Shown here one piece after another: positions 366 through 63,000 of a stretch of 64,000 nt of DNA. Both the position numbers and the translations under genes were made by a program. The notes beneath the pieces were generated by a model that saw nothing but the letters and a program-made list of their open reading frames with translations, searched no databases and was not told the origin of the DNA. The DNA is from an uncultured Holophagales bacterium. GTDB taxonomy: Bacteria > Acidobacteriota > Thermoanaerobaculia > Multivoradales > UBA5704. Location of the stretch: NCBI GenBank assembly GCA_963842525.1, contig CAWJGT010000025.1:352001-416000 (forward strand), read 5' to 3'. Positions within the stretch are counted from its first letter, which is position 1, and each line of letters starts with the position of its first letter.

Positions 366-374
366 GGTAGCGCG

Positions 375-938: not shown

Positions 939-1825
939 CGACCGCGACGGCGGGCAAGGCGCCGCCGGTCCACCACGCGCCGGACATCCGCGCGCCCACC
1001 GAGCGCGAGTTCCGGCTCTTCCAGGACCTCCTCTCGCGCGAGACCGGGATCTGGCTCAGCGAGCACAAGAGGCCGCTCCTGGTGAGCCGCCTGACCCGGC
1101 GCCTGCGGCAGCTCGGCCTGACCCGCTTCGGCGACTACTACGAGCTGGCCAACGGCGATGCGGCGGAACGGTCGAAGATGATCGAGTGCCTCTGCACGCA
1201 CGAGACGAGCTTCTTCCGCGAGCCCCGCCAGTTCCAGTTCTTCGAGAGCTCGCTGCTGCCGGCCTGGCTCGCCGCCTCCGACGAGGGCTTGCGCCCGCGG
1301 CGGGTGCGGATCTGGAGCGCCGGCTGCTCCACCGGCGAAGAGCCCTTCTCGATCGCCATGCTCCTCGCCGAGTGGCTCCCCGGCTGGGACTGCCGGGTGA
1401 CGGCCACCGACCTGTCGCGCCGGGCGCTCGACAAGGCGCGCTCCGCGACCTGGCCGATCCGGCGGATGGAGGAGATCCCGGTCCCCCTCCTCAAGCGCTA
1501 CATGCTGCGCGGCACCGGCGGCCAGGAGGGCTTCATGCGGGCCGGGGTCGAGCTGCGCGACATGGTCCGCTTCGAGCAGCTCAACCTCGCCGACCCCTAC
1601 TACGGGTTCGAAGAGCCCTTCGACCTCATCTTCTGCCGCAACGTGATGATCTACTTCGATCCCGTCTCCCGCATGCGGGTGGTCGACCGCCTCCTGCGTC
1701 ACCTGATCCCCGGCGGCCATCTCTTCCTCGGGCACGCCGAGAGCCTGCTCGGCCACACCGACCGCATACGCAGCGTGCTGCCGAGCGTCTACTCGCTCCT
1801 CCCGGCCGGCACGAGCGAGGGCTGA
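935..1825 (+). CDS. cheR: chemotaxis protein-glutamate O-methyltransferase CheR
   Basis: THETSFFRE, RIWSAGCSTGEEP, FDLIFCRNVMIYFD, GHAESL. Confidence 0.95.
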   Translation: MTTATAGKAPPVHHAPDIRAPTEREFRLFQDLLSRETGIWLSEHKRPLLVSRLTRRLRQLGLTRFGDYYELANGDAAERSKMIECLCTHETSFFREPRQFQFFESSLLPAWLAASDEGLRPRRVRIWSAGCSTGEEPFSIAMLLAEWLPGWDCRVTATDLSRRALDKARSATWPIRRMEEIPVPLLKRYMLRGTGGQEGFMRAGVELRDMVRFEQLNLADPYYGFEEPFDLIFCRNVMIYFDPVSRMRVVDRLLRHLIPGGHLFLGHAESLLGHTDRIRSVLPSVYSLLPAGTSEG

Positions 1826-1829
1826 GCCC

Positions 1830-2942
1830 ATGGCGCACAAGGACTCGATCCACGTCCTGGTGGTGGACGACTCGGCCGTCGTCCGCCAGCTCCTCTCCGC
1901 CCTCCTCTCCGAGGGGGGCGACATGACGGTGGCCGTGGCCGCCGACCCCTACATCGCGCTGCACAAGATGGGGCAGCAGCGCCCGGACGTCATCGTCCTC
2001 GACCTCGAGATGCCGCGCATGGACGGGATGACCTTCCTGCGCAAGGTGATGCGCGAGGACCCGATCCCGGTGGTGGTCTGCTCGGGCTATGCGGGCAAGG
2101 GGTCCGAAGCCGCCGTGCGCGCGCTGGAGGAGGGGGCGGTCGAGGTACTGGCCAAGCCGAAGGTGGGGCTGCGCGAGTTCCTCTACGAATCGGCCGTGAC
2201 CCTGACCGACGCGGTGCGGGCTGCCTCTCAGGCGAAGGTCCGGCGCAGCCTCCGCCCGGCGCCCAAGCTGTCGGCCGACGCGGTCCTGCCGGCGCGGCCC
2301 CCCCGGTTGCTGGTCGACCCGTCCGGGCTCCGCGTCGTGGCCATGGGAGCCTCCACCGGCGGCACCGAGGCCCTCCACTTCATCCTGTCGCAGATGCCCG
2401 AGACCGCGCCGCCGCTGGTCATCGTCCAGCACATGCCCGAAGGGTTCACCGCCGCCTTCGCCAAGCGTCTGCACGACGTCTGCCGGATCGAGGTCAAGGA
2501 GGCCGCCGACGGCGATGCCGTGGTGCCCGGCCGGGCGCTGATCGCGCCGGGCAACCTCCATACGATGCTGATGCGGCGGGGGAACGGCTATGCGGTCGAG
2601 GTGCGGGACGGGCCGCTGGTGTGCCGGCACCGGCCGAGCGCCGACGTGCTCTTCCGTTCCTTCGCGCAGGCGGCCGGCCCGGCGGCCATTGGGGTGATCC
2701 TCACCGGCATGGGCAACGACGGCTCCGCCGGGCTGCTGGAGATGAAGCAGGCGGGCGCCGCGACCTTCGCCCAGAGCGAGGAGACGTGCGTCGTCTTCGG
2801 GATGCCCAAGGAGGCGATCGCGCTGAAAGCGGTCGACGAGGTGTTGCCGCTGCCGGAGATCCCGCAGGCGCTCCTGCAACGGGCGGCGCTCCCGGTCGTC
2901 CGGCGGCGGACCGGGCAGTGGTCCGCCGAGCCGGCCGAGTAG
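1830..2942 (+). CDS. cheB: chemotaxis response regulator protein-glutamate methylesterase CheB
   Basis: REC domain (VLVVDDS, LDLEMPRMDG) plus GASTGG, VQHMP, GVILTGMGNDG. Confidence 0.95.
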   Translation: MAHKDSIHVLVVDDSAVVRQLLSALLSEGGDMTVAVAADPYIALHKMGQQRPDVIVLDLEMPRMDGMTFLRKVMREDPIPVVVCSGYAGKGSEAAVRALEEGAVEVLAKPKVGLREFLYESAVTLTDAVRAASQAKVRRSLRPAPKLSADAVLPARPPRLLVDPSGLRVVAMGASTGGTEALHFILSQMPETAPPLVIVQHMPEGFTAAFAKRLHDVCRIEVKEAADGDAVVPGRALIAPGNLHTMLMRRGNGYAVEVRDGPLVCRHRPSADVLFRSFAQAAGPAAIGVILTGMGNDGSAGLLEMKQAGAATFAQSEETCVVFGMPKEAIALKAVDEVLPLPEIPQALLQRAALPVVRRRTGQWSAEPAE

Positions 2943-2948
2943 TCGGAG

Positions 2949-4215
2949 TCAGGCCCGCGTCCGCCGCTCGCGCTGGAGCGTGCCCGCGATCTCGCTGGCG
3001 AGCTCCACGGTCAGGCGCTCCTCCTCGCAGGCCTTCCGGAACATGACGAGCGCGGCCAGGGCCTCGCGGTGGACGTCCCGCGATTCGAAGACCGGCATGA
3101 TCTCGGCCGCGAGCCGCTTGAGGTCGCCGGTCCGGTGCTCCTGCGCATAGAGGATGGCCAGGTCGAGCGACACCACGGCGGCGTCGTAGCCCATCCGCCG
3201 CTGCAGGAATTCCTGCTGGACCTGCCGGAACGTCTGCTCAGCCTCGACGAGCTGACCCAAACCGTGAGCGATCTTCGCTTCGGTCCAGTGGAGGCGAACC
3301 AGATCCAGGGGCTTGGCAAGTCGAGAGAAGGACTCTCGCACTGAGGGCAATAAGCTGCTCGCCTCCGCGTGCCGGCCCGCGAGGCTCAAGCAGGTGACCA
3401 GGTTGTGCCGGGCATACAGGTTCAGATGCGGCTCCGCATCCGGGTCGATCTCCTCGATACCCTGGCGGAGCAGCTCGACCGCCGCCGTCACATCTCCGGT
3501 TTCCTCCAGGAGCTTGGCTTTTTTCAGAATGGCCATCCCGAGCCCGTGGGAATCTTCCCCTTCCCGGTAAAGCACCAGGGCACGGTCCGTCAGAGTCAGG
3601 GCCTCCCCAAACCGCCGCTGATCCCTCCGGAGAGAGCCTTCATGTCGAGGATCTCCGCCGCGACCAGCGGGTTGCCGGTCATGCTTTCGCCCAGGTGCTT
3701 CTCCGCCTTGCGGAAAGCGGTCTCTGCGCTCCTGCGCTCCCCAGGATCCGCCGGCCGTTTCCGAGATAGGCGAAGGCGCGCGCATGCAGGTCGGAGATCC
3801 AATGCGGGTCATAGGCGGTCTCGAGATGCTGGGCCGCGTGCAACGCCAGCTCGGCCAGGTTGACAGCCGAGGCCGGATCCTCGAAGGCTGCCTCCAGACT
3901 CTTTTTGAGCAGGTGCTGACAAACGGCCCAGCTCTGGAAGCCCGGATCGTCGGCCACCATCCCGAGCTGCTCGTCGAAGGGGTGACGCAGCAGCTCGGCG
4001 ACGAGCGAGGGAGCCTCCTGTCCCTCGAAGACGGCGACACGCTCGTCCCAATGGCCGACCTCGCGTTTGAGACGCTGGATCTCCTCATAGCGCTCGCTGC
4101 AGGCAGGGCAGCTCGCCAGGAGGTGCGGGATCACCTTGGTGTACAGGTCATCGCTCTCCAGGTCACCGGCCAGCCACTTCGCCATCATTTCGAGCGACAG
4201 ATGAGCGTCTTTCAA
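2949..4215 (-). CDS. TPR protein with N-terminal HL..CPAC zinc-finger-like segment; two frameshifts (~3740, ~3635), probably sequencing errors
   Basis: ORFs 3679-4215, part of 3596-3802 and the 3' part of 2949-4088 join into one helical-repeat protein ending VHREALAALVMFRKA; TTG start with AAGGAGG SD; C-terminus similar to the 51.5-54.3 kb TPR genes. Confidence 0.8.
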
Positions 4216-4342
4216 GGGTCCCTCCTTAGGAAAAGAAATGCTCCCACTCTATGAAGTTGCCGCAGGAGGATAATCCGTGACACGCCGGGAAAAAAAGATG
4301 GGGCCGGTCCTGGCCAGCCCCCGAGCTCGCGGCCAAGCGCTT

Positions 4343-4639
4343 CTAGCCGTGCGGATCGATGGTCGCCCCCACGTCGCCGTCGGAAGTCACTCCGCTCGAG
4401 CCATCACCCTGTCCTGGGTTCCCGTGCGGATCGAGCCCGGCACCGACCATCCCCCAGATGCCGACGATCGCCTCCCAGGCCCGCGTCAGGACACTCATCG
4501 GCCGGCCGTGATCCCGCTGCTCCCACTGCTGGGGCTCGGTGTCCCAGCCGAGCACCCCGGCGAAGGAAGCAACAGGCAGCAGCGCAAGCAGTCCGGCCAG
4601 AACCACGGGGAGTGTACGCCTCCAAATCTTCGAAGACAT
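4343..4639 (-). CDS. small secreted protein (98 aa) with two GAx[LI]DPHG repeats
   Basis: signal peptide MSSKIWRRTLPVVLAGLLALLPVASFA, Trp amphipathic helix AWEAIVGIW, GAGLDPHG and C-terminal GATIDPHG; paralogous motif at 51263 and 52382. Confidence 0.75.
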   Translation of the reverse strand: MSSKIWRRTLPVVLAGLLALLPVASFAGVLGWDTEPQQWEQRDHGRPMSVLTRAWEAIVGIWGMVGAGLDPHGNPGQGDGSSGVTSDGDVGATIDPHG

Positions 4640-4791
4640 GTCTTGACCCCTTTCAGGGCGGGCGAAATGGCGCGGCGCCATGCCGCGGATGCCCATCCCC
4701 GTAAAAGAGAGTCAGCAGCCACGTCAACAGCGGGACAAAATCCGGGGAAAAATCTGCCAAGCACGAACTTCCGTCGCCGGAAGCCAACCCT

Positions 4792-5490
4792 TCAGCGGCA
4801 GTAGCGGGCCAGGCTGCGGCGGTCGTGGACCCGGATGCGGTGGTCGGGATCGACGGAGATGTAGCCGCGCTGCTTGAGCTCGACGATCACCTGGTTGACC
4901 CGCTCGCGGGAGGCGCCGACGATCTCGCCGAGGTCGCTCTGCGTCAGCCGCAGCGGGATGGTCACCTCGCCGCCGGCCTCCTCGGCTGCCATAGCGGTCG
5001 GCCAGGGCGAGGATCTGGCGGGCCACCCGGCCGGGCACGTCCAGGGTGCACAGCGCCTGGATCTGCTCGTTGGCGAAGCGCAGCCGGTTCGACGAGCAGC
5101 CGGACGAGGTTGTTGGCCAGCGGCGTGAGCGTCCGCAGGCAGGTCTGGAAGGTGGCGCGGTCCATCCAGAGGAGGCGGGAGCGCTCGGTCGTCACCACGT
5201 TGGCGGAACGGCCGGCGCTGTCGATCAGGCTCATCTCCCCTACCGTGTCGCCGCGGCCGAGGAAGGCGAGGATGACCTCGCGGCCGTCCTCCCGGGTGAC
5301 GTAGATCTTCACCGTGCCTTCGAGGATGACGTAGACCACCTCGCCGGGCTGGTCGGCCGTGATGAAGTGGGTCCCGGCCGGGATCACGGAGCTGCGCAGC
5401 AGGCCGTTCGAGTCGCCGAGCTGCTCGGGCGCCAGCCCCTCGAACAGCTCGAGGCTCGCCCAGAAGCTTCGGATCCTCGACGGCTGGCAT
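4792..5490 (-). CDS. Crp/Fnr family transcriptional regulator (about 3 frameshifts, probably sequencing errors)
   Basis: cNMP domain (VYVILEGTVKI..GEMSLIDSAGRSANV) and Crp HTH (LTQSDLGEIVGASRERVN) in different frames. Confidence 0.85.
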   Translation of the reverse strand: MPAVEDPKLLGEPRAVRGAGARAARRLERPAAQLRDPGRDPLHHGRPARRGGLRHPRRHGEDLRHPGGRPRGHPRLPRPRRHGRGDEPDRQRRPFRQRGDDRALPPPLDGPRHLPDLPADAHAAGQQPRPAARRTGCASPTSRSRRCAPWTCPAGWPARSSPWPTAMAAEEAGGEVTIPLRLTQSDLGEIVGASRERVNQVIVELKQRGYISVDPDHRIRVHDRRSLARYCR

Positions 5491-27088: not shown

Positions 27089-27190
27089 CACCCTCGCCGT
27101 CGTCTCCGTAGTCTGCCCCTACCTCGAAATCCCGACGCGGCTCTCCTGTGGGATACAGGATTGCCGCGCCGGCTGCGGAGAAAGGACACG

Positions 27191-30655
<3,465 letters not shown>

Positions 30656-30829: not shown

Positions 30830-31425
30830 ATGGGAGACGAGCGCGTGAGGAGCCACGACCAGCTCACGAAGGACCTCCTACGAGCCTTCTTCGCCGACTT
30901 CCTCGCGCTGACGCTGCCGGATGTCTCGGGGCGCCTGCGGCTGGAGGAGCATGTCTTCGTGGACAAGGAGAGCTTCACCGACTGGCCGACCGGCAGCCGG
31001 CGGGAGCTGGACCTCCTGGCCCGCGTCCCGGTCGAGGGAGAGGAGGACTGAAGGTGGAGTGCCTGCGGCGGATTGCCGGGGGAGACTTGACGCAGCTCCA
31101 GCGCTTTCTGCTGGTCAACTTCGTCGAAACCTATCTACAATTGACGGGGTCGCAGGCCGCGGAATACGCTCGTCTGCGACAGCTTGCCGAAAACCGGGAG
31201 GTGATGACCATGGAGATGACCTGGGCGGAGCAGATGGAAATGCGCGGGATCGAGAAGGGTGTGGAGGCCCTGCGGGAGGTGGTCCTCCGCCAACTTGAGC
31301 AGCGCTTTGGAAGGGTGCCGGGGACGACGAAGCGGAAGATTGGGAAGATCAAGTCCCTCGAGCCGCTCACCGAGATCGCCGAGAAGGTCTTTGTGGTCGA
31401 CTCGATCGACGAGCTCGGCCTGTAG
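30830..31425 (+). pseudogene. Rpn/YhgA-like (PD-(D/E)XK) gene with internal deletion; DUF4351-like C-terminus intact
   Basis: N-terminal HDQLTKDLLRAFFADFL..RRELDLLARV joined out of frame at ~31050 to FVETYLQL..RGIEKG..LRQLEQRFG; central nuclease core absent. Confidence 0.75.
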
Positions 31426-31439
31426 GTTGGTTGGGGACT

Positions 31440-31462
31440 AAAAAAAGGCCCCTTGCGGGGCC
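31440..31462 (-). terminator. intrinsic terminator for micropeptide gene C
   Basis: minus strand ggcccc-GCAA-ggggcc-TTTTTTT. Confidence 0.85.
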
Positions 31463-31528
31463 AGAAAGAGACGCCGGTCCCCAGGGGCGAGCCGGGTACC
31501 GGTTCAGAAAAACTTCACATTCGCCTTC

Positions 31529-31579
31529 CTACTCGGCCAGGGTCATGCCGCCGGCCTTCACGTTCGCCTTGACTTTCAT
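31529..31579 (-). CDS. 16-aa micropeptide C, MKVKANVKAGGMTLAE
   Basis: manual translation; GGAGG SD; paralogue of A and B; own promoter copy and terminator. Confidence 0.85.
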   Translation of the reverse strand: MKVKANVKAGGMTLAE

Positions 31580-31608
31580 GGTTGCCTCCGCCGTTTGTGT
31601 TGCTGTCC

Positions 31609-31667
31609 GTTCATTCACTAACGCGTAAAGCGGTGGCCAAAGCGATCACGGGGCTTGCGAGGTTTTT
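31609..31667 (-). promoter_or_regulatory. duplicated alternative-sigma-type promoter, copy 2
   Basis: CGTGATCGCTTT-N11-TACGCGTTA; 45/59 ungapped identity to 31888-31946. Confidence 0.7.
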
Positions 31668-31685
31668 GGGCGGGCTTGAAGGGAG

Positions 31686-31740
31686 GTAAAAAGGGTCGAG
31701 GGTCGGCTCCCGCGTCGTCCGCCGCAGGAGCCGACCCTCG
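31686..31740 (-). terminator. terminator after micropeptides A-B
   Basis: 14-bp perfect stem cgagggtcggctcc/ggagccgaccctcg followed by acccTTTTT on the minus strand. Confidence 0.75.
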
Positions 31741-31754
31741 GAGGGAGCCTGGAG

Positions 31755-31805
31755 CTAGTCCGACAGCATCATGCCGCCGGCCTTCACATTCGCCTTGATC
31801 CTCAT
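31755..31805 (-). CDS. 16-aa micropeptide B, MRIKANVKAGGMMLSD
   Basis: manual translation; purine-rich GGGGGAAAG SD; 12 nt downstream of A. Confidence 0.85.
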   Translation of the reverse strand: MRIKANVKAGGMMLSD

Positions 31806-31817
31806 GATCTTTCCCCC

Positions 31818-31868
31818 TCAGTCGCCGATAAGGACGCCGCCAGCCTTCACGTTCGCCTTGATCTTCAT
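31818..31868 (-). CDS. 16-aa micropeptide A, MKIKANVKAGGVLIGD
   Basis: manual translation; AAGGAG SD. Confidence 0.85.
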   Translation of the reverse strand: MKIKANVKAGGVLIGD

Positions 31869-31887
31869 GCCAGTCTCCTTTTCGCCT

Positions 31888-31946
31888 GTTCATCCCTTAA
31901 CGCGTAGAACCGCGGCGAAAGCGATCACGCGATCGGCGAGTTTTTT
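31888..31946 (-). promoter_or_regulatory. duplicated alternative-sigma-type promoter, copy 1
   Basis: TGATCG-N17-CGCGTT with upstream A tract, abutting the kinase stop codon. Confidence 0.7.
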
Positions 31947-34754
31947 TCAGGCGGGGGTGCGGGCGCTGCAGGACACCGGCGGGCCGCCGTGGGTCTTGCG
32001 GAAGGCGCTCAGCCTTTCGCAGGCGGCCACGGTCTTGGGATGGGAAGGCCCCCGGGAGCGGTCGAGGGCCTCGTAGCCGGCGGTGAGAAGCGGTCCGGCC
32101 TCGGCCGGCCGGCCGCGCGCCGCCAGACAGGCGCCGAGCTGGCTCTCAGCATCGGCAACCCGCCAGTGGCCGGCGGGCAGGGCGGCGCGCAGGATCTCGA
32201 GGCCCTGCCGCAGCAGCGGCTCCGCCTCTTCGGATGCGCCCCGGGCGAGGCGCAGCGTTCCGACTCCCACCAGCGAAGCCCCGACGTCCGGATGCGTATC
32301 GCCGAGCGCCTTGCGACGGATGGCGAGGGCCTGCCGGGCCAGCGGCTCGGCCAGTGCCAGATCGCCCTGCGCGGCATGGAGCGTCGCCAGGTTCGCAAGC
32401 GTCGTGGCGACGCGGGGGTGCTCGGCGCCCAACGCCTTGCGGGAGATGCGCAGGGCCTCCTCGTAGAGAGGCCGTGCGGCGGCCAGATCTCCCCTCTCCT
32501 CGAGCACCCGGGCGAGGTTGTGAAGCCCCATGGACACCTGCTCGTGCTCGGGGCCGAGCAGCTTGCGGCGCATGGTCAGCGAACGGCGCAGCAGCGGCTC
32601 GGCGGCCTTGGAATCACCGCGCAGGACGAGCAGGGACGCCAGGTTGTTGTGCTGCAGGGCGATCTCGGCATGCTCCTCGCCGTAGACACGGTGCGCAACC
32701 GCAAGCGCCTCACGGTAGCTCGCCTCCGCGCCTGCGATATCGCCGCGCTCGGTCTGGAGCACGGCCAGGTTGTTGAGCTGGGTGGCGATATTCGGATGCG
32801 CCGGCCCGAAGACGCGCCGCATGGTGGCGAGGGCCTCGCGGTAGAGCGCTTCGGCCTCCTCCGGATGTCCTCTCTGCTTTTCGATGAAACCCAGGTTGCC
32901 GAGGTTCGTCGCCACCTCCTCGTGGTCGTTGCCGAAGCGCCGGCGGTTGATGGCGAGCGCCTCCCGGAACAGCGGCTCGGCGTCGTCGTACTGCGCTTTG
33001 GTGGCGAGGTCCGTAGCGAGCGAGTTGAGGCTCTCGGCCACCGCCGGATCGTTGGACCCAAGGAGCTTGCGCCGCATCTCCAGCGACTCCCGGTGCAGGG
33101 CTTCGGCGCGGTCGAGATCGCCGCGGGCCTGGGCGAGGGTCCCCAGGGCATCCAGGCTCGCCGCCACCTCGGGGTGCTCGTTGCCGTAAACCTGCCGGCG
33201 CAGGGCGAGCGACCTCTCCAGGAGAGGCAGAGAGCGGTCGTTCAGCCCCAGGCCGCGGTAGGCCTTGCCGATGGTCGTGGCAAGGGCCGCCTGGACCTCC
33301 GGCTGGTCCTTCAGCCCGGTCTGGACCCGCGCCACGCCCTGGTCGAGGATCTCCCGCGCGGTAACGGTCTGGCCCCGCGCCTCGCTCGGATCGGTAACTG
33401 AGAAAATATTTTCGAGCAGGCGGGCCACCTCGACCGCCTTGTCCCGCTCCCGGCGGATCTCGTCGCGTTGGCGGGCGAGGCGCACCGCCTGCACCGTCAT
33501 CACCACGGCGAGCCCGAGGACGAGGAGGAAGACCCCCGCGGCCAAGCCCACGCCCAGGCGATGGCGACTGACGAACTTCGACGTCCGGTAGCCCAGGGTC
33601 AACGGCCGCGCCAGGACCGGCATGCGCTCGCGATAGCGCCGGAGATCCTCCGACAGGAGCTCCACGGAGCCATAGCGCCGCTGCGGCTCCTTGCGGAGCG
33701 CCATGAGGACAATATTGTCGAGGTCGCCCGCGAGGCGGCGCGCGAGCCGCCGGTCCTGCACCGTGTCCGCCGGCGCGGCGTCGCCGGACGGGACCGAGCG
33801 GCCGGCGGCGGTGCTCGGCTTTTCGGGCTGCTGCTCGACCACCGCCTGCTCGACGGCGCCGAGGCGGTCCGGGTCCAGGCGGTACGGCAGGCGGCCGGTC
33901 AGCAGGACGTAGAGCAGCACGCCCAGCGCATAGACGTCGCTCGCCGTGGTCACCACCCGGCCCTCCACCTGCTCGGGGCTGGCGTAGTGCGGCGTCATCA
34001 GGCGCTGGCCGGTCCGCGTGAGGTCGGCGCCGGGCAGGGTGGAGCCCTCCAGGAGCTTGGCGATCCCGAAGTCCAGGAGGTGAGGCCGGCCGTCGGCGGT
34101 GACCAGGATGTTGGACGGCTTGATGTCGCGATGGACCACCAGGTTCTGGTGGGCGAACTGGACCGCGGAGCAGACCTCGCGGAAAAGGTCGATGCGGGCG
34201 TCGATCCCCAGCCCCTGCTCGTCGCAGTAGCGGTCGATAGGAACACCGTCGATGTACTCCATCACCAGGTACGGCAGGCCATCCTCAGTGGTGCCGCCGT
34301 CCAGGAGGCGGGCGATGTTGGGATGTTCGAGTGAGGCGAGGATCTGCCGTTCGGAGCGGAAGCGCTCCAGCAGGTCGGACCGGTCTGCGCCATAGCCGAA
34401 GACCTTGATAGCGACCTGCTGGCGGAACTCGCCGTCAGCGCGCTCGCCGAGGTAGACGGTGGCCATCCCCCCTTCGCCGAGCTTTTTCTCGACACGCCAG
34501 GGGCCGACGCGCCGTCCCACGGCCGAGGGTGGAGGCAGGGCGATGTCTGCGATGTTCGAAAGATCCGTAGGGAGGGGCGGCTGTTCGAGGAACTCGCCGG
34601 CCGCGGCCTCTGCGGCGAGGAGAGAGGCGATCTCCCGCCGTAGCGCATCGTCGCCGCTGCACAGGTCCGCGAGGCGCGCGTCCCGTTCGGCCGGCGGCAG
34701 GGCCTCGACCTCTTCGAAGATCTCCTCGATGCGCCGCCAGCGGTCAGCCGGCAT
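31947..34754 (-). CDS. membrane Ser/Thr protein kinase with extracytoplasmic TPR repeats
   Basis: LGEGGMATVY, VAIK, HRDIKPSN, DFG, TPHYASPE; TM GVGLAAGVFLLVLGLAVVM; about 10 repeats of 42 aa (HPxVAxxLxNL). Confidence 0.95.
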   Translation of the reverse strand: MPADRWRRIEEIFEEVEALPPAERDARLADLCSGDDALRREIASLLAAEAAAGEFLEQPPLPTDLSNIADIALPPPSAVGRRVGPWRVEKKLGEGGMATVYLGERADGEFRQQVAIKVFGYGADRSDLLERFRSERQILASLEHPNIARLLDGGTTEDGLPYLVMEYIDGVPIDRYCDEQGLGIDARIDLFREVCSAVQFAHQNLVVHRDIKPSNILVTADGRPHLLDFGIAKLLEGSTLPGADLTRTGQRLMTPHYASPEQVEGRVVTTASDVYALGVLLYVLLTGRLPYRLDPDRLGAVEQAVVEQQPEKPSTAAGRSVPSGDAAPADTVQDRRLARRLAGDLDNIVLMALRKEPQRRYGSVELLSEDLRRYRERMPVLARPLTLGYRTSKFVSRHRLGVGLAAGVFLLVLGLAVVMTVQAVRLARQRDEIRRERDKAVEVARLLENIFSVTDPSEARGQTVTAREILDQGVARVQTGLKDQPEVQAALATTIGKAYRGLGLNDRSLPLLERSLALRRQVYGNEHPEVAASLDALGTLAQARGDLDRAEALHRESLEMRRKLLGSNDPAVAESLNSLATDLATKAQYDDAEPLFREALAINRRRFGNDHEEVATNLGNLGFIEKQRGHPEEAEALYREALATMRRVFGPAHPNIATQLNNLAVLQTERGDIAGAEASYREALAVAHRVYGEEHAEIALQHNNLASLLVLRGDSKAAEPLLRRSLTMRRKLLGPEHEQVSMGLHNLARVLEERGDLAAARPLYEEALRISRKALGAEHPRVATTLANLATLHAAQGDLALAEPLARQALAIRRKALGDTHPDVGASLVGVGTLRLARGASEEAEPLLRQGLEILRAALPAGHWRVADAESQLGACLAARGRPAEAGPLLTAGYEALDRSRGPSHPKTVAACERLSAFRKTHGGPPVSCSARTPA

Positions 34755-35340
34755 GGGCAGGATCTCCGCTCTCGTCGCCCGAGAGCCGGCGGTAGAGCCA
34801 GGCCTTGGCCACCCGCCAGCGACGCCGCACCGTGGGATTGGATACGCCGAGGAGAGCGGCGATCTCGTCGTGCTCCAGGCCGCCGAAGAAGCGCAGCTCG
34901 ACGATCTTGGCGAGCGGCTCGTCCTCGTGAGCGAGATCGCTCAGAGCGTCGTCGAGCGCCACCAGGTCTTCATCGCGATGGATGGCGAGGTCCGGCACCT
35001 GGTCCAGCACGAGCTGCCGCACGTCGCCGCCGTGCCGTTGCGAGCCGCGGCGGCGGGCGTGGTCGACGAGGATCCGCCGCATCATCTGCGCGGCGATGCC
35101 GAAGAAATGGGCACGGCTCTGCCAATCCACCTGGCGCTGGTCGACCAGCCGCAGGAATGCCTCATGGATGAGGTCGTGGGTTTCGAGGGTGTGGCCTTCG
35201 CGTTCGCGGTTGAGATACCGCCCGGCGAGCTTGCGCAGCTCGCCATAGACCAGAGGCATGAGCTCTTCGAGCGCGTTTTCGTCCCCGGCCTGCCAATCCG
35301 CGAGCAGCCGGGTCACGCTGCCTGGGGAAACATCGCCCAC
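34744..35340 (-). CDS. ECF sigma factor, TIGR02999/ECF43-like (kinase-coupled)
   Basis: VTRLL..W..GD..A...L.PLVY.ELR, GHTLETHDLIHEAFLRL, RAHFFGIAAQMMRRILVDHAR, VELRFFGGL; overlaps the kinase start. Confidence 0.92.
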   Translation of the reverse strand: MGDVSPGSVTRLLADWQAGDENALEELMPLVYGELRKLAGRYLNREREGHTLETHDLIHEAFLRLVDQRQVDWQSRAHFFGIAAQMMRRILVDHARRRGSQRHGGDVRQLVLDQVPDLAIHRDEDLVALDDALSDLAHEDEPLAKIVELRFFGGLEHDEIAALLGVSNPTVRRRWRVAKAWLYRRLSGDESGDPAHAG

Positions 35341-35537: not shown

Positions 35538-35823
35538 CCGCGGGACCACTGCGCGCCACCGCAGTGAGCGTCCATGGTCCTGTGGTGGCTCCTGCCGGTC
35601 CCGCGGGACCACTGCGCGCCACCGCAGTGAGCGTCCATGGTCCCGTGACTCCTGCCGGTCCCGCGGGACCACTGCGCGCCACCGCAGTGAGCGTCCATGG
35701 TCCCGTGGTGACTCCTGCCGGTACCGCGGAACCACTGCGAGCCACCGCAGTGAGCGTCCATGGTCCTGTGGTGACTCCTGCCGGTCCCGCGGGATCACTG
35801 CGAGCCACCGCAGTGAGCGTCCA
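35538..35823. repeat. tandem repeat, ~4.6 copies of a 60-63 bp palindromic unit
   Basis: units start at 35538, 35601, 35661, 35724, 35787; each has the hairpin cactgcg-N6-cgcagtg. Confidence 0.92.
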
Positions 35824-36998
35824 CTGCGTGTCTGACGATGTGCTACAGTTAATGGTTGAACCGTGTGAGCCAGGTCTTCCTCAGTTACCGGCACGTCTCC
35901 CCCGACGAACAGTTCGCGGAGCGGCTTTGCGCCCATCTCCAAGAGCGGGGGCTCCGTGTCTTCCTCGACAAGCAGATCCAGATCGGCCTCGACTGGGTGG
36001 CGGAGATCGATCGCCAGCTCCGGGCGTCGGACTCTTTTGTTGTCCTCCTCTCCGAAGAGTCGATCCGTAGCGACATGGTGCGCCAGGAGGTGCAGACCGC
36101 CCATGAGCTCCGGCGGGAGGGAAAGCCCGCTATCTTCCCGGTGCGACTGGGCTTCCAGGGGAAGTTGCCCTATGACCTGGGCTCGTATCTGAATCGCATC
36201 AAGTACGCCCTTTGGCATCCGGGTGATTCGGAGGCGGAGCTGTTCGACCTCCTTTACGCCGCAATCACGAGCGGTGCCACTCTCCCGATGGCGCCGCCTT
36301 CCGAGGACCCTGTGGTCGTCTCCTTCACGGACCTTCCCGAGTGGAAGGGGGCTCCCTTGCCCGCGGCCGATCCCCGGATCGTAATGGAGACAGGGACGAT
36401 TCGCCTTAACTCGCCATTCTACATCCGGCGAAGGGAAGACGAGATCATCGAGCGGAGTCTGACGGGTCCGAGTGACACGATTATGGTTTCTGGTCCTGGA
36501 CAGACCGGCAAGAGCTCTCTTCTAGCTCGGGCACATGCTCTGGCGCATCAGAAGGGGCTCAGATCGGTTTTCTTAGACTTCCAGAATGATTTCGATCAAG
36601 CTCAAATCGCCAACCTAAGCACCACTCTCCTGGCCCTTGCCCAGAAAATTGCAAGAGCGCTCAAAACGACTGTCCAGCCGTCCGACGTCTGGGACTCCAC
36701 GCTCCTTGGAGAAAAGGGAAGCTTCTCGGAGTTCCTGGAAACTGCGGTCCTGGCCGGGGCCTCTGGGCCATTCGTTCTTATCCTTGATCAAGTGGACATC
36801 CTGTTCGACAGGGTTCATCGTAGTGATTTCTTCGCAGCCGTCCGCGGCTGGCACAACAATCGAGCGACCAAAGGGGCTTGGGAAAACCTACACCTCGTCC
36901 TTGGCCATGCCACGGACCCAGGACTGTGGATCGAGAACCTGAACGAGTCCCCCTTCAACGTCGGTGTCCGTCTCCGCCTGGGCGACTTAACCCGCGAT

Positions 36999-38656
36999 GT
37001 ATCTGTTTACCGTCAGCGGCACTTTTGGGGAAGGTTTTCCCTGGACACACGTCCGCGCTGGCCAGGCGACCTGACGAGGGCGAGCGGCTACCGACCTGGA
37101 GCCACGGATAACTCGTGGCGAGAACTGTTACGGTGGCTGTGACGCAGGAAGTATTGCCTCAAGCTTCGGTAGCTGGGGGCTGCGCAGAAGCTGGGGCAAG
37201 ATCTCGAGTGTCCCGACTTGGTGTTGCTGAAATGTGCGCAGGGCACTCATCAAGACCGCTTGCGCCTGGGACCCCTCGGCCGTCCGATTTCCCCCAGATG
37301 TCTTGCGGTTGATGACCGCCGGGCGAATCCCTTGTTCGGCCGGCCAATTGGTCGCCTCCACATCCGTGCGTTCCAGGAAGACAAACAGCTGCTCCTGGTG
37401 ACGTATCAAATGCTGAGCCAGACGCTGGTTGTCGGGGTTCGTGAACTGCCCCGACAGACGCCTTTCCATCTGGAGCTCCAAGTCCTGCTTGACCTTCTCC
37501 AGCGCCTCGCCGCTGAGCTTGCCCGCGTCCCGCTGATCTCGCGCCTCCAAGGCGGCCTGCAGGATCTCTTTCACCGCCCGAGGAAAGCGCACCGCACCCC
37601 CTGTCGCCTTCTCCAGCAGCTCCTCGCAACGGCGCAACAGATGCGCCAGACAGGTCTGATGAGTCGCTTCTTCAAATTTCTGATAGGGAGCCCAACCATC
37701 AGCCACCAGCACGCCGACAAAGCCCTCCCCCAGGACCTCAGAGGCCTCGGCATAGCCACGACCCGGCTGGATGCTGTAGACCGTCTCGCTGCGATTGGTG
37801 AACACCCACAACCACACGCTATAGCCCCCCTCCCGCCAGCCCGTCTCGTCCGGGTACACCACAGGAGAAGCTCCGGATCTTCGCCTTCAGCTCCTCGTAC
37901 AAGGGCTCCAGCTTCTTACTCATGCGAAGCAGCGCGCGGCACAGGGCCGAGCGCGACACAGACAGTCCAGCCAGCTCCTTCAGCAACGCGGCGATCTTGC
38001 CGTAGCTCAAGCCTCCGACCTTGTTGAGCCAGGCGGCGAGCCCCAACACGTTTGGACCGAGTTGCACGTTGCCGACCCGGAACGCCTGGGAAGTCTGGCG
38101 CGGGTGACGCCCCACAGCTTCCCGGCCACATGCCGAGCACTTCCCATAATGGAGGATGAACTCCGTCGTCACCGGCCGAATCGGCGGCAGATCGGTCTGA
38201 TACTGGCGAGCTTCGCCCTGCGGAATGACCTGACCCCCACAGTGCTCACAATACAGCGGGCACTCCACCACGATGGTTTCGTCGACGTGATCGGGCACAG
38301 CTCGAGTCGCTTGCTGACCATATTGATCCCCGGCTTTGCGCCCTGGAGACTTGGGATCCTCGCTCGGATCTCCCTTCGAGAAGGGGGCAGCCTGGCGTTT
38401 GCCCCGGCGCCGTAGCTCCTCGACAAGTTTCTCCAGATCGACGATTCGGCGCTTCAGGTGCGCAATCTGGCGCTCCTGCTCCTCCACCCGCTGGCGAAGC
38501 TCACCGTTGTCTTGGCGAAGCTCAGAGTTCTCTTGAAGGAGTTCCTCGTAAGTCGGCATGCCTGAAAGACATTAGACCATGCCGAGAAGAGAACTTCAAG
38601 CCCTTGCGGACGTGCCACCGCTCGGGGAAGGCGGCACTAGGGCGGTAAACAGATAC
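36999..38656 (-). mobile_element. IS66-family insertion sequence (single-ORF type), 1658 bp
   Basis: 14-bp perfect terminal IR GTATCTGTTTACCG; 8-bp TSD CCCGCGAT at 36991-36998 and 38657-38664. Confidence 0.93.
37128..38559 (-). CDS. IS66 transposase (one frameshift ~37870)
   Basis: coiled coil, CxxCG zinc ribbon, DETGW, DGW, QTCLAHLLR, TNWPAEQGIR. Confidence 0.9.
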
Positions 38657-60019: not shown

Positions 60020-63000
60020 CTACTGGGGCCGGCCGATCAGGATGACGGGCGCCCAGTGGTACGGATGATCCAAACCCTTGCGGATCAGCTCGAGCTTGGC
60101 GAGCCGCAGCGCCTCGGCCGTATCCTCTGTCTCGTTGAGATGACGATAGAAGCTTACCATCAGCTCGGCGGTCGAGGTGTCCGAGACCTGCCAGAGACTC
60201 ACCACCACGCTGGCTGCCCCGGCGTAGAGGAACGCTCGGGTCATGCCGATCAGCCCTTCTCCCATCACGGCGTTGCCGAGGGCGGTATCGCAAGCCGAGA
60301 GGACGACCAGGTCTGCATCGAGCTCCAGGTTGAAGATCTCATAGACCTGAAGGAGGCCATCTTCCCCACGGAGGTCGCCCTCGCGCGCCAGGATCAGGCC
60401 GGAGCGCGCCGGCTGCCGCGGATCGAGGAACCCATGGACGGCGAAGTGGATGCGGCGCGCGGACTTCAGCGAAGGGCTGTTCTTGACTCTGTCCTCCGAG
60501 GCATCCGCGCCGAGGTGGACCTCGGACAGCTCCGGACTGTAGAGGGCTGCGATGTCGAGCACTTCCTGGCGCGAGGCGGCAAGGCGACGCGGCCGGGACA
60601 GGCCGGCCGTCTGGAAGAAGCGCTCCACAGACCCGGCAGGGAGCTCAGGAGCGTCGGAGGCCGGCGGGGCCCCTGCGTCTCCGTACTCGGGGTCCCCGAA
60701 TCCCAGGAAGGCCTTGCCCGCCACCGGCTCGGCGGCCTGCTGGTTTGACCGGGCAAGCTCGGCGAGCACGCTGGCCGACGGGGCGTAGGTCACCGAGCGC
60801 TCGCGGATCAGATAGGGCAGATCGCCATAGAGCGATCCCGCCCCTCCGGGATTCGGAGACGCGGTCAGCAGAGCCTCGAAGCTGAGCAGAAGCAGCGGAC
60901 CATCGGGCGAGACGATCAGGTGGGGCTTGTCTCGGAGTGAGCCCAACGCGGGGGCGACGAGAATCTGGTAGAGGCGCTGGGCGGCGTCGACGTAGCGGGC
61001 GTACAACAGGCGGCTGGGTTCGTGGATGGCCTGGCGGAAGGAGTCGACCAGCTTTGCCAGCTCGGCTGCAGGCGGCAGGGGATAGCCCCGGAGGCCGTCC
61101 CTGGTCACGACAAAGAGATACGAAATCTCCTCGCCGACGGAGTATTCCAGAAGCGCTGTCCGCGGATCGAGGAGCTCCTGAATCTGCCCGACCTGCAGAG
61201 GGATGGGGTCGCGCACCGCAGCGTAGTGCGGGTGCTCCCTGCGGATCTGTCCTTCGAGGCGCTCTCGGTCCTCCTCTGCCTGGGCGAGCTCGGCCTCGAG
61301 ACGAGCGCCCCCCAGAGCACCTCGACCCCCTCCTGCGAGCTCGTCGAGGACCTGGCTCTGCAGAAAGGCGATGCGGGCGGCGATCTCCGATTCCTTCTGC
61401 TTCAGGGCCGGCGCAATGCCCTGCTTGACGTCGACGCGGCCCTCGGCAAGCAGGTCGAGCAGGCCGCGCGCCCGGGCGCTCTCGCTGGCCCCGAGTGCCG
61501 CGGCAACATGCCCTCCGTCGGGATCGTGCCCGGCAAGGCGCATCAGGAGGTCGACGTAGAGGCTCGTAGTACTCGCGCCGCGAGGCGAAAAAGGAGACGC
61601 GCAGCCGGTTGACGGCGATGTTGGGGCGCACCGTCTCGATGATGTGCAACGCGCTCTTGATCGTCGCTGTTGCGGCTTTCAGGTCGCCGCGGTCTCGCTC
61701 CAGCCGCGCCAGCGCCGACAGGGAGAAGGCCTCGGCCAGGGGTGCCTTTCTCTGGCGGCTCAGGTCCAAGGCTTGTCGAAAGAACCGCTCGGCCTGCTCG
61801 TCGTCGGAGAGCGCTCCCCAGGCGCGCCCCAGACCCATGAGGACGTTGATCTGCCCCAGTGCGTTCTCCTTCTCCTCAAAGATCGCCTTCGCCTCTTCGA
61901 GCTTCCCGCAGGGCCTGGCGGGGATCGCCGAGATCAAGGTGGGCCCGCCCCATGCCCCAGAGGGCCGCAGCCCGGCTCTGGAGGTCGTCTCCGGACCGGC
62001 TGATCTCGTACGCCTGGGTGTGGTATTCGAGAGCCTTGTGGAAATCGCCCTGCAGCTCGTACACCCCGCCGAGATCGCGCAATGCATAGGCCTTCCAACC
62101 GGAGCTCCCCAGAGTGGTGTAGATCTCGAGCGCCTGGGTGTAATAGCCGAGCGCCTTCTCTGAATCTCCCAGGTAGAGGGAAGCCGTGCCGAGGCTCGAC
62201 AGCGCTTTCCCCTCCTCAAACCGGTCACCGGTGGCGCGGTAGAGCTCGAGCGCCTGGCCGAAGAGCTCCAGCGCCTTCTGGAGCTCGCCTCGCCGCAACT
62301 CGAGAGCGGCCGTGTGCTTGAGCGCGCTGGCCTCGCTCGTCCTGTCGCCTGCGGCGCGGGCCAGCTCGAGGGCCTGGGTGAAATCGCGGAGCGCCGTCTC
62401 GGTGTCCCCCTGGTCGCGGTGAATGACACCGAGGGAGTCCAGGACCGAAGCCTCTCCCGACAGGTTGCCCGCCGCGCGGCACAAGCCCTGGGCGCGGTTG
62501 AGATAGCCCAGGGCCTCTGTGAATTCCTGCCGCTCGATGAGGACCACGGCCAGGTTCAGGAGAGCCGTGCCCAACTCGCTTTCGCTGCCGAGGGCCTCCC
62601 ACAGGCGCAGAGCTGCGCGGTAGGCTTCGGCCGCTTTCAGGGTTTCGCCTAACTGGCGATAGGCGAGCCCCAGACTGTGCAAGGACCAGGCTTCCCAGGT
62701 GCCGTTGCCAGCCTTGCGGGCAGTGGATAGAGCGAGCTCCAGAAGCGTCAGCCCGCCCTGAGCGTCACCCAATTCCCGATGCAGCTCTCCGAGCCCGAGC
62801 AGAGTCTCAGCTTCCTCAGCGAGATCGCCGATGGCGCGCCAGTGCGGCAGAGCCTCTTCCAGCAGAGCGAGCGCCTTCCTGCGGCTCTCTTCGGATTCCA
62901 GAGTCCTCAAATGCCTGGCTTCGTGGACTGTCGCCTCGGTGGCCACCCGCTCGCCGTCCTTCAGGTCGGCCGGTCGTACTTCCTCCAGCCGCACGGTATA

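What the first reader, a model, noticed from the sequence alone, without database searches (positions are those of the whole stretch)
31440..35340. Candidate peptide-signalling loop: ECF43-like sigma + TPR Ser/Thr kinase + three 16-aa double-glycine micropeptides
Seen: directly downstream of the sigma-kinase operon are three 51-nt ORFs too short for the ORF track: MKIKANVKAGG-VLIGD (31818-31868), MRIKANVKAGG-MMLSD (31755-31805) and MKVKANVKAGG-MTLAE (31529-31579). Each has an SD. The 11-aa leader is conserved with synonymous changes (aac/aat, gct/gcc), while the pentapeptide after GG varies on a hydrophobic-x-hydrophobic-small-acidic pattern. They form two transcription units, each with its own terminator. 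Established: ECF43-type sigmas (EcfP/PknT, EcfK/PknS) are activated by a co-encoded membrane kinase, TPR domains bind short peptides, and GG is a common leader cleavage site. Inference: exported pentapeptides could be the ligands of the kinase TPR ectodomain, or its output, giving a quorum-sensing-like feedback loop. I do not know of a described family for these peptides.
Basis: partly seen in the sequence, partly recalled or inferred. Interest (0 to 1): 0.92.

Follow-up and report, generated by a model that had tools for sequence, protein, structure and literature searches.

The report
Exported micropeptides beside a sigma-kinase pair
Three real 16-codon genes belong to a large, unnamed family of tiny peptides in soil bacteria that sit beside a cutting-and-exporting pump and, here, beside a membrane receptor kinase and its sigma factor, which makes peptide signalling in this phylum directly testable.

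Summary
Three 51-nt ORFs with Shine-Dalgarno sites, two shared promoter boxes and two terminators lie downstream of a TIGR02999 ECF sigma and a kinase-TM-TPR gene.

They belong to a large, unnamed family with the leader MK[IV]K[TAS]N[VI]KAG and a short variable tail. Neither Pfam nor NCBIfam has a model for it.

The conserved boundary is KAG, not GG. The family sits beside HlyD, C39-peptidase ABC (PCAT) and ABC export operons in 34 of 115 loci, and beside this sigma type in 11 of 115.

In a congener, G005, PCAT-ABC2-sigma-kinase-four peptides form one same-strand cluster. In this genome the cluster is split: the window holds sigma, kinase and three peptides, and contig C30 holds HlyD-PCAT-ABC2 and one peptide, with the genome's only detected C39 domain.

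The exact promoter box occurs only in genomes with the sigma orthologue, always upstream of peptide genes. The flanks hold no conserved modifying enzyme.

Best reading: unmodified 5-6-residue exported peptides under this sigma's control. Whether they bind the kinase ectodomain is untested, and three points count against it:
- The sigma lacks the ECF43 phospho-threonine.
- One genome has peptides and exporter but no close kinase orthologue was found there.
- Most family loci show no sigma.

The parts
34744..35340 (-). ECF sigma factor, 198 aa, TIGR02999 / PF07638 type. The sigma-2.2 motif is HTL-ETHD-LI.
   Evidence: TIGR02999 219.6 bits against cutoff 126.15. One search gives the motif alignment. 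Orthologues are 83-84% identical in G005 and G434.
31947..34754 (-). Hanks-type Ser/Thr receptor kinase, 935 aa. It has an 86-aa N-terminal extension, a kinase domain, a single TM segment at about 398-428, and a C-terminal TPR region at about 431-935 that is predicted to be periplasmic. It overlaps the sigma gene by 11 nt.
   Evidence: Pkinase 87-368; TPR_12 in 8 stretches. (one hydrophobic segment; the P-loop, HRDIKPSN, DFG and SPE motifs are present). (75% identical to the L062 kinase and 82% to G005, but at most 45% to paralogues in the same genome).
31898..31928 (-). Promoter-like box 1, GTGATCGCTTT-N13-CGCGTTA, 29 nt upstream of peptide gene 1.
   Evidence: one of only two exact copies in the genome. 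(one exact copy each in G005 and G434, both upstream of the orthologous peptide arrays; none in G433).
31818..31868 (-). Micropeptide gene 1: MKIKANVKAGGVLIGD.
   Evidence: The same VLIGD tail occurs in G434 with two synonymous codon differences.
31755..31805 (-). Micropeptide gene 2: MRIKANVKAGGMMLSD. It lies 12 nt after gene 1, in the same transcription unit.
31697..31740 (-). Intrinsic terminator of unit 1 (18-bp stem followed by a T run).
31619..31649 (-). Promoter-like box 2, with the same bipartite sequence as box 1.
31529..31579 (-). Micropeptide gene 3: MKVKANVKAGGMTLAE.
31440..31462 (-). Intrinsic terminator of unit 2 (6-bp GC stem followed by T7).

Best explanation
The three ORFs are translated prepeptides of a widespread family. 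Each has a 10-residue leader, MK[IV]K[TAS]N[VI]KAG, and a short variable tail.

The leader is the address for a dedicated exporter made of HlyD, a C39-peptidase ABC transporter (PCAT) and a second ABC protein. In this genome that exporter lies on contig C30. It would cut after the conserved Ala-Gly (less likely after Gly-Gly) and release unmodified 5-6-residue peptides ending in Asp or Glu: (G)VLIGD, (G)MMLSD and (G)MTLAE.

The adjacent ECF sigma drives the two peptide units from the shared box GTGATCGCTTT-N13-CGCGTTA. The co-transcribed membrane kinase controls that sigma.

Shown by sequence and comparison:
- The family exists.
- It is linked to exporters and to sigma-kinase pairs.
- Tails, box and module are conserved.

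Inferred:
- Cleavage and export.
- Dependence of the box on this sigma.
- As the favoured but unproven closing step, sensing of the mature peptides by the kinase's periplasmic TPR domain. That would give an autoinducing loop like ComC/ComAB/ComDE, but built from a Hanks kinase and an ECF sigma.
For: Family and translation:
The commonest length is 16 aa.
- SD-like sites precede 219 of 245 family ORFs, against 35 of 246 control ATGs.
- Identical tails are encoded by different codons across genomes.
- The multi-core relatives have 1276 protein homologues.

Export:
- 34 of 115 loci carry ABC, C39 or HlyD genes. An ABC gene lies within 500 nt of a peptide in 14 loci and HlyD in 12.
- G000 has one detected C39 domain. 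It sits in a HlyD-PCAT-ABC2 operon followed by the family peptide MKIKTKVKAGGIVMTGAD. The catalytic Cys (DCGPA) and His (THFVVV) motifs are present.

One module:
- G005 contig C120 carries PCAT, ABC2, sigma, kinase and four peptides on one strand, with gaps of 12-34 nt between the large genes.
- G433 has HlyD-PCAT-ABC2 and three peptides of the same subfamily. G434 has sigma, kinase and four peptides.
- Among 12 relatives, a kinase orthologue (81% identity) was found only in G005, which is also the only congener with the peptides.

Promoter:
- The exact box occurs twice in G000 and once each in G005 and G434, always just upstream of peptide genes. It does not occur in G433, where no kinase orthologue was found.
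- A looser version, TGA.C..TTT-N12-14-CGC, hits 13 times in 1.59 Mb. Six hits fall in the roughly 2% of sequence that lies within 150 nt upstream of peptide ORFs. The motif was partly derived from these loci.

No modifying enzyme:
- The flanks of the module differ in every genome and are housekeeping genes.

Receptor plausibility:
- The topology is kinase-TM-TPR.
- The ectodomain is as conserved as the kinase domain, 75-81% against 77-85%.
- PknS has the same architecture and its extracytoplasmic TPR domain is needed for signalling, with no ligand named in the passages I read (PMC13147305).
Against: - There is no evidence of expression or of the peptides themselves. No RNA run was listed.
- The leader is shorter than the 13-residue recognition motif, and lacks the hydrophobic residues at -7 and -12, described for a PCAT protease (PMC6363468 passages). 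Ala at -2 is atypical.
- Only 11 of 115 family loci show this sigma type in the slice examined, so the family as a whole is not dedicated to sigma-kinase signalling.
- G433 keeps peptides and exporter, but no kinase match at E <= 1e-150 was found there.
- The window sigma and its orthologues have ETHD where ECF43 has QTTA. The phospho-acceptor position is His and acidic residues are already present, so the canonical kinase-to-sigma switch may not apply.
- The box was not found upstream of the sigma gene or of the C30 exporter operon, so no autoregulation of the regulators is visible.
- Sigma dependence of the box rests on co-occurrence in three related genomes.
Confidence: 0.6

Rival explanations
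1. Output only. The kinase senses some other envelope or biotic cue, as proposed for PknS. The sigma then switches on the peptide genes, and the exported peptides act on something else, such as other cells, a protease, a metal or competitors. They do not feed back on the kinase.
For: The promoter box lies upstream of the peptides only. G433 has peptides and exporter, but no kinase orthologue was found there. Most family loci lack the sigma. In G000 a different membrane TPR regulator (Trans_reg_C plus TPR) lies about 1.5 kb from the C30 peptide.
Against: The tails are conserved rather than diversifying within the orthologous modules. The ectodomain is conserved in step with them. Exporter, regulators and peptides are contiguous in G005, the layout typical of autoinducing peptide loci (recalled from Gram-positive com, blp and pln systems; abstract starts of PMC7595303).
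Confidence: 0.25
2. Precursors of bacteriocins or RiPPs. The variable tails are cores that enzymes encoded elsewhere modify into antimicrobial or other bioactive products. The sigma-kinase pair only regulates production.
For: The family has a conserved leader and a hypervariable tail. It forms tandem arrays of up to 14 variants (L130) and 13 (L025, with Cys-rich tails). It has multi-core precursors with KAG-core-NHNQTVARG repeats. Its export genes are of the PCAT/HlyD type, with NHLM_micro_ABC1 as the best but sub-threshold NCBIfam hit.
Against: No recurrent modifying enzyme appears among the neighbour clusters of 115 loci. The only recurrent ones are TPR proteins, ABC/PCAT, HlyD, a sigma-54 activator and the ECF sigma. 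None lies in the flanks of the three orthologous modules. The window tails of 5-6 residues lack Cys, and Ser/Thr are not conserved. That is very short for an unmodified antimicrobial.
Confidence: 0.1
3. Not translated. The repeated 30-nt 'leader' is a DNA or RNA element, such as an sRNA, a repeat or a regulatory site, and the ORFs are incidental.
For: There is no direct expression data. The ORFs are below gene-caller size.
Against: Conservation is at the amino-acid level, with synonymous third-position changes. SD-like sites occur in 219 of 245. In-frame multi-core versions have 1276 protein homologues. There is no Rfam match in the peptide region: the only two weak hits (E 0.48 and 0.7) lie inside the kinase gene.
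Confidence: 0.03

Closest known systems
Double-glycine leader peptides exported by peptidase-containing ABC transporters (ComC/ComAB, BlpC/BlpAB, class II bacteriocins and microcins, Nif11/NHLP peptides)
   Same: Both have a short N-terminal leader ending in small residues and a variable C-terminal product. Both have adjacent C39-ABC and HlyD-type genes. In the pheromone examples, regulators, exporter and peptide genes are also clustered (PMC7595303, abstract start only).
   Different: The leader here is only 10 residues. Its conserved boundary is Ala-Gly, not Gly-Gly/Ala/Ser. Only the -4 hydrophobic position matches the -4/-7/-12 pattern (passages). The products are as short as 5-6 residues. 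The hosts are diderm Acidobacteriota. The linked regulators are a Hanks kinase and an ECF sigma rather than a histidine kinase and response regulator. The PCATs score far below the NHLM_micro_ABC1 cutoff (179 against 853 bits).
ECF43-type sigma / Hanks receptor kinase pairs (EcfK/PknS of Xanthomonas citri, EcfP/PknT of Vibrio parahaemolyticus)
   Same: The sigma is of the TIGR02999/PF07638 family and is followed directly by a kinase with an N-terminal extension, a kinase domain, one TM segment and a TPR region predicted to be periplasmic. No anti-sigma gene is present (PMC13147305 and PMC7826278 passages).
   Different: The sigma-2.2 motif is ETHD, not QTTA or QATE, so there is no Thr at the phospho-acceptor position. 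The apparent target is a set of micropeptide genes rather than a T6SS. The known pairs have no reported peptide or exporter partner in the passages I read.
PatS / HetC of heterocyst-forming cyanobacteria
   Same: PatS is a short, gene-encoded peptide whose RGSGR pentapeptide is essential for its activity. It occurs in a diderm bacterium together with a peptidase-domain ABC exporter (PMC4133259, PMC10986499, PMC7761841: search listing and abstract starts only).
   Different: There is no sequence relation and no RGSGR motif. PatS-derived peptides act on the regulator HetR, not on a membrane kinase. Here the peptide genes occur as paralogous arrays with a family-wide leader.
RRNPP peptide systems (Phr/Rap, PapR/PlcR, NprX/NprR)
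   Same: These systems release C-terminal penta- to heptapeptides from small precursors, and the peptides are read by TPR domains (recalled; the family is named in the PMC7595303 abstract start).
   Different: Those receptors are cytoplasmic and the peptides are re-imported. Here the TPR domain lies beyond a TM segment on a kinase. Export would be by a PCAT rather than by Sec plus extracellular proteases.

Membership tests
Double-glycine (PCAT-substrate) leader peptides | Gly at -2 and Gly/Ala/Ser at -1 of the cleavage site | tested here: inconclusive
   The window peptides carry A-G-G. Family-wide, only K-A-G is invariant: position 10 is G in 238 of 238, position 9 is A in 233 of 238, and position 11 is G in 67 of 233. 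The conserved site would therefore be Ala(-2)-Gly(-1). The cleavage site itself was not determined.
Double-glycine (PCAT-substrate) leader peptides | Helical leader of about 13 or more residues with hydrophobic residues at -4, -7 and -12 | tested here: not met
   The leader is 10 residues long. With cleavage after KAG, -4 is V/I/L, but -7 is K/R and there is no -12 (against PMC6363468 passages).
Double-glycine (PCAT-substrate) leader peptides | Genetic linkage to a C39-peptidase ABC transporter with catalytic Cys and His, plus an accessory HlyD-type protein | tested here: met
   On C30 the order is HlyD, PCAT (Peptidase_C39 at residues 13-130, DCGPA and THFVVV motifs), ABC2, then the peptide. 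The cluster is contiguous in G005. 34 of 115 loci carry export genes.
Double-glycine (PCAT-substrate) leader peptides | Demonstrated cleavage and export | not testable with these tools
   This needs an in vitro C39 assay or peptidomics.
ECF43-type kinase-regulated sigma factors | Sigma of the TIGR02999/PF07638 lineage with a co-encoded Hanks-type transmembrane kinase and no anti-sigma factor | tested here: met
   The sigma and kinase genes overlap by 11 nt. I did not run the ECF group classifier itself, so 'ECF43' is by analogy.
ECF43-type kinase-regulated sigma factors | Uncharged sigma-2.2 motif (consensus QTTA) with the conserved phospho-acceptor Thr | tested here: not met
   The window, G005 and G434 sigmas read ETHD. 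In the 23-sequence alignment, most of the other sequences (G000 paralogues and sigmas of other peptide-linked loci) read QPTA, QTTA or QTSA; a few differ. The consensus comes from PMC13147305 passages.
ECF43-type kinase-regulated sigma factors | Phosphorylation of the sigma by the kinase | not testable with these tools
   This needs a biochemical assay.
RiPP precursor | Co-encoded enzyme that modifies the core | tested here: not met
   No recurrent enzyme cluster appears among 637 neighbour ORFs of the family loci (115) plus L001 and L002. The flanks of the three orthologous modules are unrelated housekeeping genes. An enzyme encoded elsewhere is not excluded.
PatS-type morphogen peptides | RGSGR (RG[ST]GR) pentapeptide | tested here: not met
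   It is absent from the window peptides, and I did not see it in the list by eye.

The most novel reading that the evidence does not exclude
The mature 5-6-residue peptides are the ligands of the periplasmic TPR ectodomain of the adjacent Hanks-type kinase. HlyD-PCAT-ABC2, sigma, kinase and peptides would then form a self-contained autoinducing (quorum-sensing-like) circuit. This would be the first peptide pheromone system built on a receptor Ser/Thr kinase and an ECF sigma, the first ligand class for ECF43-type receptor kinases, and the first peptide signalling system in Acidobacteriota. The family's other tail types would be further 'pherotypes' read by other TPR receptors.
Probability: 0.3. 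Interest if true: 0.92.

Novelty: new variant of a known kind. Interest (0 to 1): 0.8.

Why it matters
Acidobacteriota are among the most abundant soil bacteria, yet I know of no described peptide signalling system in them. The four literature searches here found none either.

The passages I read on PknS show that the extracytoplasmic TPR domain of such a receptor kinase is needed for signalling. They name no ligand for it.

This locus and its relatives supply a compact module with defined boundaries. It consists of an exporter with a protease domain, a sigma, a kinase, a sharply defined promoter box, and peptides short enough to synthesise. Each arrow of a putative loop can therefore be tested with simple assays.

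The work also uncovers a large unannotated family of genes below gene-caller size. Standard annotation and BGC miners probably miss them.

Tried and rejected
- RNA evidence: the look-up of sequencing runs listed no RNA holder, only one DNA metagenome run with an 0.11 share of the words.
- Rfam: nothing in the peptide region.
- NCBIfam on three longer family members: no family. One sub-threshold hit to an epilancin model (E 0.34) was dismissed.
- Protein Atlas: only 'hypothetical protein' clusters, commonest in Acidobacteriota. The structure hits are on a low-confidence model (pLDDT 0.59) and I ignored them.
- Paper search by sequence motif (NVKAG, NHNQT, KTNVK, NIKAG): the 20 listed papers of 387 were irrelevant, being haemoglobin peptides or unrelated words.
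- Co-folding of peptide with the TPR or C39 domain was not sent. The tool asks for chains of 30 residues or more and the peptides have 16.
- Lanthipeptide-synthetase-like kinase (LanKC/LanL): considered because of weak NCBIfam kinase-domain hits. I rejected it because there is no lyase or cyclase domain and the tails lack conserved Ser, Thr or Cys.
- The 91-aa ORF at 31618-31893(-) that overlaps the small ORFs: rejected as a gene because no equivalent ORF exists at the G005 locus.
- A 2-mismatch copy of the promoter box in G435 lies before an unrelated ORF with no peptide, sigma or kinase nearby. I treated it as chance.
- My first neighbour count from picked ORFs undercounted sigmas (7 loci). 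The tblastn recount gave 11.
- Supplements of the ECF classification paper, which hold the group descriptions and promoter motifs, were not available. I could therefore not compare the box with any predicted ECF43 promoter.

Full report
**1. What is in the window**

On the minus strand, the sigma gene at 34744-35340 is followed, with an 11-nt overlap, by a 935-aa kinase gene at 31947-34754.
- The sigma matches PF07638 (E 1.5e-57) and TIGR02999 (219.6 bits, cutoff 126.15).
- The kinase has an 86-residue N-terminal extension and a Hanks kinase domain at residues 87-368. The P-loop, HRDIKPSN, DFG and SPE motifs are intact.
- It has a single strongly hydrophobic segment at about 398-428, followed by eight TPR_12/TPR_10 stretches.
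- Because the kinase domain must be cytoplasmic, the TPR region is predicted to be periplasmic. PknS has the same plan (PMC13147305 passages).

Each has an SD. They form two units, each ending in a hairpin with a T tail. Each unit is preceded by the same box, GTGATCGCTTT-N13-CGCGTTA. These are the only two exact copies in the 9.95-Mb genome. No sigma-70-like promoter was found in the region.

**2. The ORFs belong to a real, large family**

- In the window's own genome a loose regex found 10 small ORFs, against 1 for the reversed control. One of the 10 (contig C32) looks false.
- The other own-genome members are on C3, C4, C11 (a tandem pair), C30 and C34. Several have a near-perfect SD, GGAAAGGAGGTGATCCC.
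- A 39-bit degenerate DNA pattern for the leader matched 2 of 40 relatives and 3 of 400 genomes sampled from the phylum. The reversed controls gave none.
I estimate about 2 chance hits.
- The hits are mostly Acidobacteriota MAGs: Blastocatellia, Pyrinomonadaceae, Bryobacteraceae, Thermoanaerobaculia and Terriglobia. Others are Pirellulaceae, Myxococcota, Chloroflexota, Verrucomicrobiota and a few Pseudomonadota.
- In 115 of these 118 loci I found 246 small ORFs, 170 of them with the strict leader. The commonest length is 16 aa, and arrays reach 14 members.
- SD-like 4-mers precede 219 of 245 of them, against 35 of 246 random ATGs in the same loci.
- Leader positions 1-10 are nearly invariant: M, K, V/I, K, T/S/A, N, V/I/L, K, A, G. 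Position 11 is G in only 67 of 233.
- The family signature therefore ends at KAG. The window's 'GG' is a feature of its subfamily.
- Longer members repeat the unit LKVKT.VKAG-core-NHNQTVARG. One of them has 1276 database homologues, nearly all unnamed or 'hypothetical' and nearly all without a Pfam domain.
- NCBIfam has no model, and the Atlas clusters are unnamed.

**3. What the family sits next to**

I clustered 637 neighbour ORFs from the 8-kb slices of the 115 loci, plus the two 3-kb loci L001 and L002. Only a few recurrent groups emerged:
- TPR proteins, which include kinase-TPR and CHAT-TPR proteins.
- C39-peptidase ABC transporters and a second ABC protein.
- HlyD.
- A sigma-54 activator with FHA and GAF domains.
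- The PF07638 ECF sigma.

A tblastn recount over the 115 loci (796 kb) gave the following:

| Neighbour | Loci with it | Within 500 nt of a peptide ORF |
|---|---|---|
| Any export gene (ABC, C39 or HlyD) | 34 | not counted as a group |
| ABC | 25 | 14 |
| HlyD | 20 | 12 |
| ECF sigma | 11 | 8 |
| Kinase | 14 | 0 (6 within 1500 nt) |
| Sigma and kinase together | 9 | not counted |

In the own genome the sigma query gave 17 tblastn pieces in 9.95 Mb. About 1-2 such genes would therefore be expected in 796 kb of random sequence. This is a rough yardstick taken from one genome. The slices are not centred on the peptides, and related genomes are not independent, so these figures describe the data and are not a test.

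**4. The decisive comparison**

- The window kinase is 75% identical over its full length to the kinase of L062 (genome G434, a Thermoanaerobaculia MAG by its record title) and 81-82% to that of the congener G005. It is at most 45% identical to its own paralogues.
- Both orthologues are preceded by the sigma orthologue (83-84% identity). Both are followed by the exact promoter box and by four peptides of the same subfamily.
- In G005 the two genes immediately upstream of the sigma, on the same strand, are orthologues of the PCAT (76-80%) and ABC2 (73%) of the window genome's contig C30. The gaps between the large genes are 12-34 nt. The cluster reads PCAT-ABC2-sigma-kinase-peptide x4 and is cut by the contig start.
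- In G433, HlyD-PCAT-ABC2 is followed directly by three peptides: ISWAE, VLISD and ITVTGSD. No kinase match at E <= 1e-150 was found in that genome.
- In the window's genome the module is split. Sigma, kinase and three peptides are in the window. HlyD-PCAT-ABC2 and one peptide (IVMTGAD type) are on C30, which holds the only C39 domain detected in the genome.
- Among the 12 relatives searched, the kinase orthologue was found only in G005, which is also the only congener with the peptides.
- PCAT orthologues were also found in G002 and, as a fragment, in G001. My strict pattern found no peptides in either, so the link is not one-to-one.
- The flanks of the module are unrelated housekeeping genes in each genome: an FAD oxidase, a carboxyltransferase with AtuA, malate synthase with isocitrate lyase, and here a DUF4351 protein. 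This sets the module's boundaries and shows no conserved modifying enzyme.

**5. Selection on the tails**

Within the orthologous modules the tails are conserved, not scrambled.
- VLIGD occurs in G000 and G434 with two synonymous differences.
- VLISD occurs in G005 and G433.
- The I-[TV]-x-[TS]-G-[AS]-D type occurs in G000 (C30), G005, G434 and G433.
- Most tails end in Asp or Glu.
- The kinase ectodomain is as conserved as the kinase domain, 75-81% against 77-85% identity.

This fits tails that are read by a specific partner. It does not show that the partner is this ectodomain. The acidic C-terminus recalls the carboxylate-clamp recognition of EEVD tails by TPR domains. That is recalled knowledge and a lead only.

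**6. Mechanism**

Best supported:
- The ORFs are translated.
- The 10-residue leader directs them to the PCAT, which cuts at the conserved Ala-Gly. Val at -4 matches one of the three hydrophobic anchor positions described for LahT.
- HlyD/ABC export releases unmodified 5-6-residue peptides.
- The peptide units are transcribed from a box that co-occurs with this sigma. It has exact copies in G000 (two), G005 and G434, always upstream of peptides, and none in G433.
- More distant sigma-linked loci carry a related bipartite motif upstream of their peptides.

The closing step, peptide binding to the ectodomain, is inferred from gene clustering, topology and conservation.

Points against:
- The sigma and its orthologues read ETHD where the ECF43 consensus is QTTA. 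His occupies the phospho-acceptor position and acidic residues flank it. The kinase may therefore control this sigma by another site or route.
- The box was not seen upstream of the sigma or the exporter.
- G433 lacks a detected kinase orthologue.
- Most family loci show no sigma in the slice examined.

**7. Comparison and novelty**

- In function this most resembles double-glycine peptide pheromone and bacteriocin loci. It fails two of their defining leader features (see the membership test).
- The regulators resemble ECF43/PknS-type pairs, but the sigma lacks the signature threonine.
- PatS/HetC is the nearest diderm analogue of a short, gene-encoded signal peptide with a PCAT. It is unrelated in sequence and in receptor (listings and abstract starts only).
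- Neither Pfam nor NCBIfam has a model, and the source databases give no informative name.
- Four paper searches found no description. This covers only the open library searched.
- I rate it a new variant of a known kind: a new leader family with a new kind of regulatory coupling.

**8. Limits**

- There are no expression data.
- No co-folding was done, because the peptides are shorter than the tool's stated minimum.
- The supplements of the ECF classification paper were unavailable, so the box could not be compared with predicted ECF43 promoters.
- The taxonomic placement of the window (Acidobacteriota, probably Thermoanaerobaculia) is inferred from the titles of matching named loci (L058, L083, L062, L084).

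Noticed in passing
window 35538-35823: A 63-nt tandem repeat with 4.6 copies and 92% matches, containing internal inverted repeats. It fills the gap between the sigma gene and the divergent TIR gene. Its nature is unknown.
   Followed up: partly
window 35856-37142 (+): A 428-aa protein with an N-terminal TIR_2 domain and an AAA_35 ATPase domain. This is a defence- or STAND-like architecture next to the signalling module.
   Followed up: no
window 31054-31425 (+) and 30830-31051 (+): A 123-aa ORF with a weak DUF4351 match (22.5 bits, below the cutoff of 25), convergent on the peptide units. A 73-aa ORF lies just upstream. Together they may be a split gene.
   Followed up: no
G000 contigs C3:1249561, C4:177127, C11:212929 and 213036, C34:111671: Five further family members in the same genome, with other tail types (NFVNPNV, SGKSDLVDG, TENIVWGT, DENIVWSV, PEIINKPTG). 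None is next to a sigma-kinase pair or an exporter. Several have the SD GGAAAGGAGGTGATCCC.
   Followed up: partly
L132 (G000:C30) 2688-4586 (-): A 632-aa protein with a Trans_reg_C DNA-binding domain and TPR repeats lies about 1.5 kb from the C30 peptide and exporter operon. It could be an alternative peptide receptor.
   Followed up: no
L024, L028, L045, L099, L106 and others: Multi-core precursors of up to 122 aa repeat LKVKT.VKAG-core-NHNQT[VL][AS]RG. The NHNQT follower implies a second processing step that the window's single-core peptides would not need.
   Followed up: partly
L025 (Terriglobia MAG) 11-5360: Thirteen family peptides flank a sigma-kinase operon on both sides. One set has Cys-rich tails (PHGCGSGGCMHAA type) and the other Pro/Trp tails (PSGHPW type). 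Each set has its own copy of a related promoter motif.
   Followed up: partly
window 27161-30655 (+): A 1164-aa protein with PD40 beta-propeller repeats and a C-terminal amidohydrolase domain. It is not part of the module.
   Followed up: no
window about 60032-60811 (-): A CHAT-domain homologue by tblastn (38% identity to the CHAT domain of a family-neighbouring protein). The genome has many CHAT paralogues.
   Followed up: no
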